A DNA stretch of 64,000 nucleotides. It comes from Chloroflexota bacterium. GTDB lineage: Bacteria > Chloroflexota > Anaerolineae > Anaerolineales > UBA11858. Both the position numbers and the translations under genes were made by a program. Within the stretch, counting starts at the first letter, position 1. Each line of letters opens with the position of its first letter. Shown here in pieces: positions 7,558-50,527 of the stretch. The DNA lies in contig JBDRGC010000023.1 of the NCBI GenBank assembly GCA_043818215.1, positions 1,976-65,975 of the forward strand. Reading direction: 5' to 3'. The notes beneath the pieces were generated by a model. The model made no database searches, was not told the origin of the DNA, and was given only the letters and a program-made list of their open reading frames with translations.

Positions 7558-7566
7558 CTTTAATTC

Positions 7567-7680
7567 AGCATGAATGAATTCATGCTCTGATATGCGAAGT
7601 CCGTTAAAACGGACTGACGGCCATTGGAACGGGTTTGACCAGTTTTGTGCCAGACATCGATTTCAATCGGTGGGCATGTT
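7567..7680. repeat. Cluster of short tetraloop hairpins
   Basis: agcatgaaTGAAttcatgct and agtccgtTAAAacggact. The same hairpin style appears in the 49079-49440 module. Confidence 0.7.
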
Positions 7681-47646: not shown

Positions 47647-48954
47647 TCACACCGCCGCTCGAATGGCACGCTCGTAGTCAGCGCGCTCCTGCAATTGTTG
47701 GCGCAGCGTTTGGATATCGCCGGGGAGGAACCTGATGGCGAACAAATAGAAAACGAAGCACAACAGCCAAGTCGTAATGCAAATTGTCAATATTGCGGTG
47801 TGCAGGTTGCTGGCATCCGCGATGATGCCTGCCAGCAAGGGTGCCAGGGCTGCTCCGCCGTTTTCGATGAAATACTGGATGGACAGCGCGGTGCTGCGCA
47901 CTTCCGGCAGGGTGACATCGTAAACAGTGGAGATGACATTGGGAGATGATAGTGGTATGAATAGCGCTGTGAGGCACAGTAATATGAAGAACAGCGTGCG
48001 ATTTTCTACCGGCACACTCATGGTGAAGAACAAGAAGATCGCGCCGGTCAGCACGCCGACCATGGCAACGATAATGCGTCCATTGAGCGTCCGCTTGAAC
48101 ATATAATCGCCCAGCGCCCCGCCAAGAAAATAACCGCCCGCCAGTATCAAGACTGCTGGTGCCATAGTTAGCAGGACGCTGTTCTCGTCGTAGCCGCGCT
48201 CCTCGGCCAGATAAGTGAAGAACCAATAGGTGATCACATTCCACGGGAACACACCGGCAAAACCTTGCAGGAACATGAACCATAGGCTGCGTTTCTTGAA
48301 CAATCCTAAGGCCTGTTCTTTGCTGAAGCGGTAAACCCCCATTTCCTCGAGATTCTCGAGCGCGGGTTCGCTTTTCCCGCGCGGCACATCGCGTACCCCG
48401 AAGAAAATGACGATTGCCAGCAAGATGCCCAACCCGCCTGTAATGTAGAACACGTTGCGCCAATCCCAGCCCAGCATCGGCGCGACCATCAAGGCCAGGA
48501 TCATCCCCAGTAAATAGCCAAGCGGTTGCGACAATTGAAGCAATCCATAGATTCGCCCTCGAATGTTGGGGGCGAAGTAATCGGCAATCAGGCTAAAGAG
48601 GCCGGGGTAAGATGAGTCGTCGATGCCGGTGGATGCACGCGTCGCCAGGAACGAGCCATAACTGGGAGCGATAGCGCTCAACCATGTTGTAGCCCCCCAG
48701 ATGAACGAAGCCAACGCCAGCAACTTCGCGCGCGCGTACCGGTCATATAGATAGCCCCAGAGCGGATACAACACTGTCCCAACAAGCAGAGCGCCAGTGA
48801 CCACCGCTCCCATTTGGGTTTTGGTGATATCGAACGACTTCATGATTTCCGGCGTCAGCGGTCCGATCAGCAGCTTGTCGCTTTGATGGAGCAGCATAAA
48901 TGTAAAGAATATACCTACTACAAACCAGCGGTACTTGCTATTGGATGGCTTCAT
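47647..48954 (-). CDS. MFS transporter
   Basis: 435 aa with about 12 TM segments, and a GYLYDRYARAKLL loop after TM2. Confidence 0.75.
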   Translation of the reverse strand: MKPSNSKYRWFVVGIFFTFMLLHQSDKLLIGPLTPEIMKSFDITKTQMGAVVTGALLVGTVLYPLWGYLYDRYARAKLLALASFIWGATTWLSAIAPSYGSFLATRASTGIDDSSYPGLFSLIADYFAPNIRGRIYGLLQLSQPLGYLLGMILALMVAPMLGWDWRNVFYITGGLGILLAIVIFFGVRDVPRGKSEPALENLEEMGVYRFSKEQALGLFKKRSLWFMFLQGFAGVFPWNVITYWFFTYLAEERGYDENSVLLTMAPAVLILAGGYFLGGALGDYMFKRTLNGRIIVAMVGVLTGAIFLFFTMSVPVENRTLFFILLCLTALFIPLSSPNVISTVYDVTLPEVRSTALSIQYFIENGGAALAPLLAGIIADASNLHTAILTICITTWLLCFVFYLFAIRFLPGDIQTLRQQLQERADYERAIRAAV

Positions 48955-49019
48955 GGGGGATCTCCTCTTTGTTTGCTAAATGTGAGGTGAGTCTAATATA
49001 ATTGCACGGGGGCGTCAAC

Positions 49020-49612
49020 GATTCAGCGAGTCTGCGAGTCAACGAGTCTGCGAGTCAGCGAGTCAGCGAGTCAACGAGCAAATCAGCCCCCCGAATGAAT
49101 TCGGGGTCTGGTATTGGAAACATGCTAAAGCATGTTGCGGCACGCCCTGAACCTGCTTTAGCAGGTTTCTCGTAGCAGCATCGAACACCTGCACTTGCGT
49201 TTAGGTGCAAGTGTTCATTCGATGTCGGTCAGCGAGTCAACGAGTCAACGAGTCAACGATCAAATCACCCCCCGAATGAATTCGGGGTCTGGTATTGGAA
49301 ACATGCTAAAGCATGTTGCGGTACGCCTTGAACCTGTTTTAACAGATTTCTCGTAGCAGCATCGAACACCTGCACTTGCGTTTAGGTGCAAGTGTTCATT
49401 CGATGTCGGTCAACGAGTCGACGAGTCTGCAACTCGCCGACTCGCAAACTCACCGACTCGCCGACCTACCAACTCGCCAACTCGCCGACCCTGACTCGCC
49501 GACTCGCTGACTTGCTGACTCCCCAACTTGACACCCCCCACCCAAATCTGCTATACTATCCCCGACTGGTCAGACCACTTACCAGTGAAACAAACTCGCC
49601 ACTCGCCACTCG
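49020..49612. repeat. Composite palindromic region: CGAGTCA-type arrays, two tandem copies of a 182-nt four-hairpin module (49079-49260, 49261-about 49440), and inverse GACTCGC-type arrays
   Basis: Module hairpins are ccccgaaTGAAttcgggg, aacatgcTAAAgcatgtt, aacctgcTTTAgcaggtt and catcgaacacctgcacttgcg..gtgcaagtgttcattcgatg. The period is 49261-49079 = 182. Confidence 0.85.
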
Positions 49613-49615
49613 CCC

Positions 49616-50299
49616 ATGAACAACTGGTCCGCCCCACAACGCCCCATAGAGCATGCAGAACAATCGCTCGTGCGCGCCATTTTGGATGGGGACTATCCCT
49701 CGGGCACGACACTGCCAGGAGAGCGCCAATTGGCAGATCAATTGGGAGTCACCCGGCCCACGCTGCGTGAAGCCTTACGCCGTATGGAACGCGATGGCTG
49801 GCTCACCATCCGGCAGGGCAAATCGACAGTGGTCAATGATATCTGGCGCGATGGGGGTTTGAATGTGCTCAGTGCCCTGGCGCGTTTCAGCGATGAAATG
49901 TCCACCGAATTTGCAACCAATCTGTTGAAAGTGCGCCTCGACTTAGCTCCATCATACACCCGTCTCGCAGTGGAACACAACCCGGAGACTGTCATCACAT
50001 ACCTGGAGGCCGCCGCTGATTTGGACGCGCAGCCGGATGCTTTCGCGGCTTTCGATTGGGGGCTACATCGCTGTTTGACCATCGCGTCTGGCAACCCCAT
50101 TTACACTTTGATCCTCAATGGTTTTATCAGTTTTTATGAGCAAAGCGCACGCATATACTTTGCGCATTCAGATGCCCGCGCCAGCTCGAAATCGTTTTAC
50201 GCTGCGCTCCTGACCGCTGCTCAACGCCGCAATGCAGAGGCAGCCGAGAGCATCACCCGCTCCGTCATGCGGGAAAGCATCGAGTTGTGGCAGCGGTAA
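49616..50299 (+). CDS. fadR: FadR-type (GntR family) fatty-acid-responsive regulator
   Basis: Full-length collinearity with my recollection of E. coli FadR: LPGERQLADQLGVTRPTLREALRRMERDGWLTIRQGKSTVVNDIW..GLNVL..LAR; ASGNPIYTLILNGF..Y...YF. Confidence 0.75.
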   Translation: MNNWSAPQRPIEHAEQSLVRAILDGDYPSGTTLPGERQLADQLGVTRPTLREALRRMERDGWLTIRQGKSTVVNDIWRDGGLNVLSALARFSDEMSTEFATNLLKVRLDLAPSYTRLAVEHNPETVITYLEAAADLDAQPDAFAAFDWGLHRCLTIASGNPIYTLILNGFISFYEQSARIYFAHSDARASSKSFYAALLTAAQRRNAEAAESITRSVMRESIELWQR

Positions 50300-50310
50300 C
50301 AGAACGATAT

Positions 50311-50527
50311 GTCATTGCGAGCCGACGCTTTCCGGCGAAGCAATCTCCTTCTCGCCAAGGACGAGATTGCTTCACTCCGCTACTAAGAAGCATAATGCCA
50401 TGTCATTGCGAGCCGACGCTTTCCAGCGAAGCAATCTCCTTCTCGCCAAGGATGAAATTGCTCACCTGCACTGCACCAAACGCAGTGCGGTGCAAGTGTC
50501 AGCGGTAAAGCTGCTTCGCAATGACAG
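50311..50527. repeat. Two tandem copies of the gtcattgcgagccgacgctttccRgcgaagcaatctccttctcgccaagga element, plus an inverted partial copy and a cactgcac hairpin
   Basis: Copies at 50311-50380 and 50402-50465. The inverted fragment gctgcttcgcaatgacag is at 50509-50527. Confidence 0.8.

What the first reader, a model, noticed from the sequence alone, without database searches (positions are those of the whole stretch)
49020..49612. 182-nt four-hairpin module duplicated in tandem inside a 600-nt palindromic spacer upstream of fadR
Two near-identical units (49079-49260 and 49261-about 49440) each contain four stem-loops, three with 7-8-bp stems and T/A-rich tetraloops. The pair is embedded between CGAGTCA-type arrays and their inverse GACTCGC-type arrays, so the whole divergent MFS/fadR control region can fold back on itself.

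Similar tetraloop hairpins occur at 7567-7615. Candidates are a structured ncRNA family, a protein-binding array or a composite MITE.
Basis: seen in the sequence. Interest (0 to 1): 0.5.

Follow-up and report, generated by a model that had tools for sequence, protein, structure and literature searches.

The report
REP-like four-hairpin mobile repeat, duplicated
The duplicated four-hairpin module upstream of fadR is one of about 90 copies of a small palindromic repeat that, in Chloroflexota and filamentous cyanobacteria, always sits beside one IS200-like single-strand-DNA transposase gene. It is therefore most likely that enzyme's mobile partner DNA and not a fadR control element.

Summary
A 181-nt unit occurs 2.1 times at 94% identity (49046-49427), each unit holds four hairpins, and complementary octamer arrays surround the pair.

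It is not specific to fadR. The 148-nt core is one copy of a dispersed family with about 89 sites in this Anaerolineales draft genome, including a diverged copy at 7562-7678. All four stems covary across 13 species.

The only gene consistently linked to the family is a low-copy HUH/Y1 transposase. It carries the motifs of TnpA-Y1 subclass 1.2, which the literature lists as having no partner repeats. In this genome the gene lies between copies of the element. In 77 of 80 other species, the gene has such hairpins within 300 nt.

The likely fadR promoter and FadR operator (49528-49586) lie outside the repeat block and are conserved in relatives that lack the block.

Best reading: a REP/REPIN-like non-autonomous element, duplicated locally and carrying a nested 28-nt hairpin. 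Mobilisation by the Y1 enzyme is inferred, not shown.

The ncRNA and regulatory readings are not supported. The scan has noted the same gene-plus-repeat pairing on other DNA (e1-5245245, e1-3699439, e1-1447413).

The parts
47647..48954 (-). MFS transporter gene, left neighbour
   Evidence: ORF; Pfam MFS_1, E = 7.9e-47.
48990..49018 (-). Promoter-like site for the MFS gene. Its -35 hexamer is the first word of the left array.
   Evidence: Consensus scan, 9 of 12 matches with a 17-nt spacer. This is a consensus match only.
49014..49078 (.). Left octamer array (GAGTCARC type), about 8 units
   Evidence: TRF period 8, 8.1 copies. The word is abundant genome-wide.
49083..49230 (+). Copy 1 of the four-hairpin element. 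H1 49089-49106, H2 49119-49136, H3 49150-49167, H4 49179-49224.
   Evidence: Covariance model R1, 97.6 bits on the + strand and 86.6 on the - strand. ssDNA fold. Inverted repeats I21-I23.
49186..49213 (+). 28-nt hairpin nested in the centre of H4 of copy 1
   Evidence: The canonical family members lack it. It is identical in all six composite copies, and it also occurs in other repeat families and alone.
49228..49263 (.). Middle octamer array, which forms the junction of the duplication
   Evidence: TRF period 8, 4.6 copies.
49264..49411 (+). Copy 2 of the four-hairpin element. H1 49270-49287, H2 49300-49317, H3 49331-49348, H4 49360-49405, nested hairpin 49367-49394.
   Evidence: Model R1, 93.0 bits. 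It has 5 core differences from copy 1, against 11 or more from any other locus.
49409..49427 (.). Short same-sense octamer array
   Evidence: TRF.
49432..49521 (.). Array of the complementary word (ACTCGCCG type), the right arm of the large palindrome
   Evidence: TRF period 8, 11.5 copies. It is 71-90% complementary to the left array.
49528..49557 (+). fadR promoter-like site, immediately outside the repeat block
   Evidence: 11 of 12 consensus matches, with an extended -10. A similar -35 and -10 at the same distance from the FadR box precede fadR in most of the relatives inspected.
49565..49586 (+). FadR-type operator, a 22-nt inverted repeat
   Evidence: Nearly the same word precedes fadR in 12 of the 14 loci inspected from relatives and metagenomes, most of which have short spacers. 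Its assignment as an operator is an inference.
49594..49614 (+). Three heptamers between the operator and the fadR start codon
   Evidence: TRF period 7, 3 copies, 100% matches. They are absent from the relatives' leaders.
49616..50299 (+). fadR (GntR family with a FadR C-terminal domain), right neighbour
   Evidence: Pfam FadR_C 2.3e-41, GntR 9.1e-21.
7562..7678 (+). Third, diverged copy of the element in the window
   Evidence: Model R1, 78.4 bits. The sequence shows an H1 with the same centre and an H2 of the cyanobacterial type.

Best explanation
The module is a copy of a REP/REPIN-like non-autonomous DNA element. The canonical element is about 112-124 nt long and two-fold symmetric. Each arm has an outer hairpin with a conserved centre (GAATGAATTC on the left, its complement on the right) and an inner 7-bp hairpin with a four-base loop.

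Its cognate enzyme is most likely a low-copy HUH/Y1 single-strand-DNA transposase of TnpA-Y1 subclass 1.2. That gene lies between copies of the element in this genome and in relatives. By analogy with IS200/IS605 TnpA and RAYT enzymes, the protein would recognise the hairpins in single-stranded DNA, then cut and rejoin beside or inside them to spread the element.

At this locus, one copy that already carried a nested 28-nt hairpin in its right-hand palindrome landed in, or became flanked by, an octamer-array palindrome between the two divergent promoters. It was then duplicated in place, with the duplication junction lying in the octamer array.

Shown:
- the repeat family and its copy number;
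- stem covariation;
- linkage to the gene;
- dispersal in four genomes;
- the local origin of the duplication;
- the position of the block outside the fadR promoter and operator.

Inferred:
- that the Y1 protein moves the element;
- that it acts on ssDNA;
- that the block has no specific regulatory role.
For: Family size: BLAST finds 84 matches to one unit, and hairpin modules keep a conserved order at about 100 loci. Model R1 gives about 89 distinct sites among the 150 best matches.

Symmetry: the same sites score on both strands, for example 115 versus 105 bits.

Covariation: across 15 elements from 13 species, 93.7% of cells are paired, against 26-41% when the partners are slid. 18 of 30 pairs change on both sides, and 0 of 500 shuffles reach this.

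Gene linkage in this genome: a Y1 gene is split over the end of contig C270 and the start of contig C129. About 2.5 element copies end 20 nt before its ATG, a half element with the same nested hairpin follows its stop codon, and another full copy lies 3.2 kb downstream.

Gene linkage in relatives: intact orthologues in G013 and G027 are flanked in the same way, and in G027 all four stems are changed compensatorily.

Gene linkage more widely: in 80 further species, 77 have a perfect hairpin (stem of 7 or more) within 300 nt of the gene, and 61 have two adjacent hairpins. Hairpin density is 8.0 per kb near the gene and 0.76 per kb farther away.

Co-occurrence: among 40 relatives, 11 of the 16 genomes with model matches have a Y1 hit, against 3 of the 24 without. 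A fuller profile also finds the gene in the repeat-rich G018 and G016.

Dispersal elsewhere: the gene-flanking element is dispersed in Ca. Amarolinea, a Nostoc and G013.

Local duplication: the tandem pairs are each other's nearest relatives.

fadR control region: the promoter and operator lie outside the block and are conserved without it.
Against: - No transposition event, empty site or target-site rule was demonstrated.
- The Y1 gene in this genome is read across a contig break, with about two codons missing.
- Covariation in DNA palindromes can arise from template-switch correction without selection on function.
- Five of the 16 repeat-bearing relatives showed no Y1 hit; a fuller profile later found a weak, stop-interrupted match in one of them (G001). 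All of these are draft genomes.
- An RNA-level role cannot be excluded without expression data.
- The duplication could also be a product of the enzyme itself and not of array-mediated recombination.
Confidence: 0.75

Rival explanations
1. The module is a structured non-coding RNA family. It would be an sRNA or a UTR element that stabilises or terminates transcripts, and the hairpins would be conserved for RNA function.
For: There is strong covariation in four helices and a stable fold. The nested hairpin followed by a T-rich stretch scores as terminator-like. REP elements in E. coli are known to affect mRNA stability (background in PMC6006769).
Against: - No Rfam family matches at E up to 1, in the window or in 16 related loci.
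- Both strands score almost equally.
- In tandem gene spacers, orientation relative to transcription is 7 versus 7. Copies are enriched in divergent, promoter-side spacers (10 of 26, against a 14% background) and not after genes.
- The one conserved genomic partner is a DNA transposase gene.
Confidence: 0.1
2. The module is a locus-specific control device for the divergent MFS and fadR genes. It would be a cruciform or a protein-binding array that sets the expression of both.
For: The block lies exactly between the two -35 hexamers. The whole spacer can fold back on itself. Copies favour divergent spacers.
Against: - The same element occurs at about 89 unrelated sites.
- fadR relatives have spacers with the same promoter and operator but no such block.
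- The FadR box at 49565-49586 is outside the block.
- The arrays are a genome-wide feature, with 1259 period-7 and 466 period-8 TRF rows.
Confidence: 0.03
3. The module is a classical MITE or insertion-sequence target. Either the element is moved by a DDE transposase through its inverted ends, or the Y1 gene is an IS that merely prefers to insert next to these hairpins.
For: The two arms are inverted repeats. Insertion sequences that target REP sequences are known (reference list of PMC3116915).
Against: - No target-site duplication is visible at copies that lack arrays.
- The Y1 gene is found once in this genome with this query.
- The gene keeps the same downstream neighbour in G000 and G013.
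- In each genome checked, the element beside the gene also occurs dispersed elsewhere in that genome.
- TnpB occurs only as two fragments on other contigs.
Confidence: 0.07
4. The tandem duplication is an assembly artefact of a metagenome bin, with two strain alleles joined head to tail.
For: The genome is a 529-contig draft, 80% complete. Repeats break its contigs, and many copies lie at contig ends.
Against: - The two copies differ at 5 core positions and have their own array junction.
- Tandem multimers of the family recur at C64, C7, C95, C248, C455 and C270.
- They also recur in other assemblies beside the Y1 gene, for example four copies in Ca. Amarolinea.
Confidence: 0.05

Closest known systems
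REP/REPIN elements with RAYT (TnpA-REP) genes, arranged as 'REPtrons' in E. coli and Pseudomonas
   Same: - Short extragenic palindromes are present in tens to hundreds of copies.
- The unit is an inverted doublet that can form one long hairpin or several short ones.
- Tandem clusters occur.
- One low-copy HUH/Y1 gene is flanked by its own repeats.
- Repeat stems differ between genomes, while the gene linkage is kept.
   Different: - The protein is not a class-2 RAYT. It carries the class-1 signature and matches IS200-type TnpA structures, not 4ER8.
- There is no conserved GT[AG]G foot.
- Each arm has two different hairpins, not one.
- The hosts are Chloroflexota and filamentous cyanobacteria.
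TnpA-Y1 subclass 1.2 (Quentin, Siguier, Chandler, Fichant 2018, PMC6006769)
   Same: - The motifs match: D/N-H-[IVL]-H, WQ and Y---Q--HH.
- There is a C-terminal tail beyond the core domain.
- Copy number is low.
- The subclass is present in cyanobacteria.
   Different: Table 1 of that paper lists 'REP: no' for this subclass and gives its taxa as Cyanobacteria and Bacteroidetes. Here the gene is flanked by a conserved multi-hairpin repeat that is dispersed in the genome, and it is common in Chloroflexota.
IS200/IS605 insertion sequences and their gene-less derivatives
   Same: The transposase fold and catalytic motifs are the same. The DNA ends are defined by hairpins, not by simple inverted repeats, and there are no target duplications.
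   Different: The gene is not multi-copy. No tnpB lies beside it. The gene sits among several whole elements and not between one left end and one right end.
STRR heptamer arrays and small nested dispersed repeats of heterocystous cyanobacteria (Elhai et al. 2008, not held in the library)
   Same: Intergenic tandem 7-8-nt word arrays surround the element. A very small hairpin element is nested inside another repeat.
   Different: The phylum is different. I could not compare sequences with the published families.

Membership tests
REP/REPIN-RAYT system (TnpA-Y1 class 2) | Short extragenic palindromic repeat in many dispersed copies | tested here: met
   84 BLAST matches and about 89 distinct model sites. 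Most copies are intergenic.
REP/REPIN-RAYT system (TnpA-Y1 class 2) | The replicating unit is an inverted doublet (REPIN) | tested here: met
   The arms are 79% complementary over 29 nt (I15). The same sites score on both strands with model R1. Half elements (H1-H2 only) also occur.
REP/REPIN-RAYT system (TnpA-Y1 class 2) | Low-copy Y1 gene flanked by its cognate repeats | tested here: met
   Seen in G000 at C270/C129, in G013 and G027, and in 77 of 80 other species.
REP/REPIN-RAYT system (TnpA-Y1 class 2) | Protein of the RAYT type (Y---NP signature, related to E. coli TnpA-REP, PDB 4ER8) | tested here: not met
   The signature is Y---Q--HH. The PDB search hits IS200-type TnpAs at about 1e-10 and does not hit 4ER8 at E up to 1.
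REP/REPIN-RAYT system (TnpA-Y1 class 2) | Conserved GT[AG]G at the 5' foot of the hairpin | tested here: not met
   GTAG lies a few bases 5' of H4 in the window copies. Other copies and species have ATAG, GTGC or nothing comparable.
TnpA-Y1 subclass 1.2 | HuH, WQ and Y---Q--HH motifs | tested here: met
   The orthologues carry DHVH, WQRGY and YVRDQKxHH. 78 of 80 relatives carry Y---Q--HH.
TnpA-Y1 subclass 1.2 | C-terminal tail beyond the core, and low copy number | tested here: met
   The Pfam domain ends about 50 residues before the C-terminus. This query gives one match in G000.
IS200/IS605 insertion sequence | Several near-identical tnpA copies, often with tnpB | tested here: not met
   There is a single copy of this subclass. 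The other Y1 hits in the genome are weak or different. TnpB occurs only as two fragments on other contigs.
TIR-type MITE | Target-site duplication at the ends | tested here: inconclusive
   None was seen by eye at copies with unique flanks. No empty site was available for comparison.
Any curated RNA family (Rfam 15) | Match to a covariance model | tested here: not met
There were no matches at E up to 1 in 48000-50500.
STRR-type tandem word arrays (for the flanks only) | Intergenic tandem 7-8-nt units | tested here: met
   TRF rows at this locus. Genome-wide there are 1259 period-7 and 466 period-8 rows.

The most novel reading that the evidence does not exclude
The Y1 enzyme nicks inside the conserved centre of the outer hairpins. 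Three observed features would then share one chemistry: the nested 28-nt insertion at that exact point, the head-to-tail multimers, and the 11-14-nt 'stutter' arrays that start at that point at element ends in several species. By extension, that activity would seed the genome-wide heptamer and octamer arrays (STRR type) shared by filamentous cyanobacteria and these Chloroflexota.
Probability: 0.1. Interest if true: 0.8.

Novelty: new variant of a known kind. Interest (0 to 1): 0.55.

Why it matters
REP-RAYT systems are the textbook case of a domesticated transposase kept together with its own population of mini-elements, and they are known mainly from Proteobacteria. This case gives a candidate DNA partner to subclass 1.2, an IS200-like enzyme branch that the literature describes as having no partner repeats. 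It also shows the pairing across Chloroflexota and filamentous cyanobacteria, with covarying stems and a conserved hairpin centre.

This gives biochemists defined substrates to test. It also warns annotators that such hairpin clusters upstream of regulators are mobile DNA, not riboswitches or operators.

For this locus, the practical message is that fadR control should be sought in the 90 nt next to the gene.

Tried and rejected
- **Rfam.** A scan of the locus and of 16 related loci found nothing relevant.
- **Near-identical strains.** The metagenome scan with FadR gave only relatives at 73% identity or less.
- **Orthologous empty site.** The nearest fadR relative has 54% protein identity, so the spacers are not alignable. 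Only the promoter and operator are shared.
- **Cyanobacterial origin.** This was rejected because the HIP1 octamer is not over-represented.
- **Link between the element and the arrays.** 52% of element blocks have an array within 60 nt, against 7.5% of random positions. Earlier notes report arrays in about two thirds of all gene gaps, so this shows only that both live in spacers.
- **omega-RNA/TnpB reading.** This was rejected because no tnpB lies near the gene.
- **Literature.** Searches for the hairpin words were uninformative. Elhai et al. 2008 is not held. The REP described for Nostoc punctiforme by Bertels and Rainey is a different sequence.

Full report
**Observation**

The stretch between the MFS gene (47647-48954, minus strand) and fadR (49616-50299) holds a 181-nt unit repeated 2.1 times at 94% identity (49046-49427, score 680). 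Octamer arrays lie at 49014-49078, 49228-49263 and 49409-49427, and an array of the complementary word lies at 49432-49521. The left and right arrays are 71-90% complementary.

One unit folds as single-stranded DNA with z = -4.95. The whole 541-nt block folds back on itself with z = -14.9.

**It is a dispersed family**

One unit finds 84 BLAST matches in the window's own genome, a 4.69-Mb, 529-contig draft that is 80% complete. Coverage of the spacer by genome-wide matches starts near 49010 and stops near 49535.

The four hairpins occur at about 100 loci in a fixed order and relative orientation. They appear as full elements, as halves (H1-H2 or H3-H4) and as tandem multimers at C7, C64, C95, C248, C455, C101 and C223.

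Reading the copies in register shows the canonical form:
- The element has two arms, and the arms are inverted copies of each other.
- Each arm has an outer hairpin whose centre is GAATGAATTC (left) or its complement (right).
- Each arm also has an inner 7-bp hairpin with a four-base loop.

The window copies differ from the canonical form in one respect. The right outer palindrome is split at its centre by a 28-nt hairpin (49186-49213 and 49367-49394). That small hairpin also sits inside at least three other repeat families in the genome. It is identical in all six composite copies, although their cores differ by up to about 20%.

**Structure is conserved**

A MAFFT alignment of 15 elements from 13 species supports all four helices:
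- 93.7% of cells are paired, against 26-41% when the partners are slid.
- 18 of 30 pairs have changes on both sides.
- None of 500 shuffles reaches the observed values.

A covariance model built from this alignment finds about 89 distinct sites among the 150 best matches in the genome. The same sites score almost equally on both strands, which shows the two-fold symmetry.

**The partner gene**

A search for Y1 transposases found a gene split between the end of contig C270 and the start of contig C129. The two halves fit the intact orthologues with about two codons missing.
- About 2.5 tandem copies of a compact variant of the element end 20 nt before the ATG.
- A half element follows the stop codon, and its outer palindrome carries the same nested 28-nt hairpin.
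- A further full copy lies 3.2 kb downstream.

Intact orthologues of 166-169 residues in G013 and G027 are flanked in the same way. In G027 all four stems are changed compensatorily.

The protein is an HUH/Y1 enzyme. Its best solved relatives are IS200-type TnpAs at about 1e-10, and the E. coli RAYT structure is not matched. Its motifs (DHVH, WQRGY, Y---Q--HH), its C-terminal tail and its low copy number are those of TnpA-Y1 subclass 1.2 of Quentin et al. 2018. Table 1 of that paper lists no associated REP and names Cyanobacteria and Bacteroidetes as hosts (PMC6006769).

**Generality**

A scan of one genome per species found 232 relatives of the protein. The best 80 come from Anaerolineales, Caldilineales, Ardenticatenaceae, Thermoflexales, Chloroflexus, Ca. 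Amarolinea and many filamentous cyanobacteria.
- 77 of the 80 loci have a perfect hairpin within 300 nt of the gene, and 61 have two adjacent hairpins.
- Hairpin density is 8.0 per kb near the gene and 0.76 per kb farther away.
- The hairpins keep the same two types, with species-specific stems.

The element next to the gene is also dispersed elsewhere in Ca. Amarolinea, in a Nostoc and in G013, at roughly 10-20 sites each.

Among 40 relatives, 16 have model matches. 11 of these have a Y1 hit, against 3 of the 24 without matches. These genomes are kin and not independent, so the Fisher value of 5e-4 overstates the case. A fuller profile also finds the gene in the repeat-rich G018 and G016. Weaker Y1 hits in G004, G023, G029 and G037 carry the same signature and have analogous flanking hairpins.

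**This locus**

Promoter-like sites bracket the block exactly. One lies on the plus strand at 49528-49557 (11 of 12 matches) and one on the minus strand at 49018-48990. A 22-nt inverted repeat at 49565-49586 recurs, together with a similar -35 and -10, in front of fadR in relatives and metagenome contigs that lack the block. The working fadR control region is therefore most likely 49528-49615, and the block is an insertion between the two promoters.

The two copies differ at 5 core positions, against 11 or more for any other locus. The C64 pair behaves the same way, so these are local duplications. Here the junction lies in the octamer array, which would fit unequal recombination or slippage between arrays. 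Elsewhere, copies abut without arrays, so the enzyme itself may also make multimers.

**Context and orientation**

With rough ORF calls, 26 loci could be classified. 10 are in divergent spacers, 2 are in convergent spacers and 14 are in tandem spacers, with orientation 7 versus 7. Divergent spacers make up 14% of the background. This does not fit an oriented RNA element placed after genes.

**What remains inferred**

No transposition event or empty site was seen. I found no near-identical strain. Palindrome self-correction can mimic selection for pairing. An RNA role is not excluded.

**Earlier notes**

I reached this reading before looking them up. Notes e1-5245245, e1-3699439 and e1-1447413 report the same enzyme subclass with hairpin repeats in other phyla. 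The suggested overlap with the Rfam family Acido-Lenti-1 was not found for these variants.

Noticed in passing
window 49186-49213 and 49367-49394; G000 C129:391-418, C129:3696-3723 and C67: A 28-nt hairpin is inserted at exactly the same point, the centre of the outer palindrome (between GAA and TTC), in diverged subfamilies of the element. The same hairpin sits inside at least three other repeat families and occurs at 90-93% identity in genomes of other families of the order (G027, G029). It looks like a very small, site-specific nested mobile element.
   Followed up: partly
G000 C248:4524-4595, C270:41076-41140, C503:5952-5989, C29:7314-7351, C145:11754-11786, C129:3725-3749; also L092, L095, L098 and L106: Short tandem arrays of 11-14-nt units are built from the 3' half of the element's outer palindrome plus a few flanking bases. 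They start within a base or two of the palindrome centre. The pattern recurs at element ends in several species, which suggests a shared breakage or slippage point.
   Followed up: partly
window 49594-49614: Three perfect heptamers lie between the FadR box and the fadR start codon. They lengthen a leader that is only about 8-15 nt in relatives, and no Shine-Dalgarno-like sequence is evident.
   Followed up: no
G000 C303:6028-6381 (L031:1450-3327, minus strand): A 625-residue ORF carries a complete Y1 transposase domain at its C-terminus (residues 491-609). The N-terminal 490 residues had no Pfam or NCBIfam match in the scans run.
   Followed up: no
G000 C270 end and C129 start: The assembly breaks inside the HUH motif of the Y1 gene, with about two codons missing. 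The G000 copy is separated from the shared downstream neighbour by a 3.2-kb segment bounded by two elements, and this segment is absent from G013.
   Followed up: partly
window 49014-49019 and 49525-49533: The outermost words of the left and right arrays coincide with the -35 hexamers of the two divergent promoter-like sites. The octamer word itself contains a -35-like core on the opposite strand.
   Followed up: no
L146:2239-2318 (Nostoc locus): A PsrR1 photosynthesis regulatory sRNA (68.9 bits, above the gathering score) lies about 300 nt downstream of the Y1 gene. This is probably coincidental.
   Followed up: no
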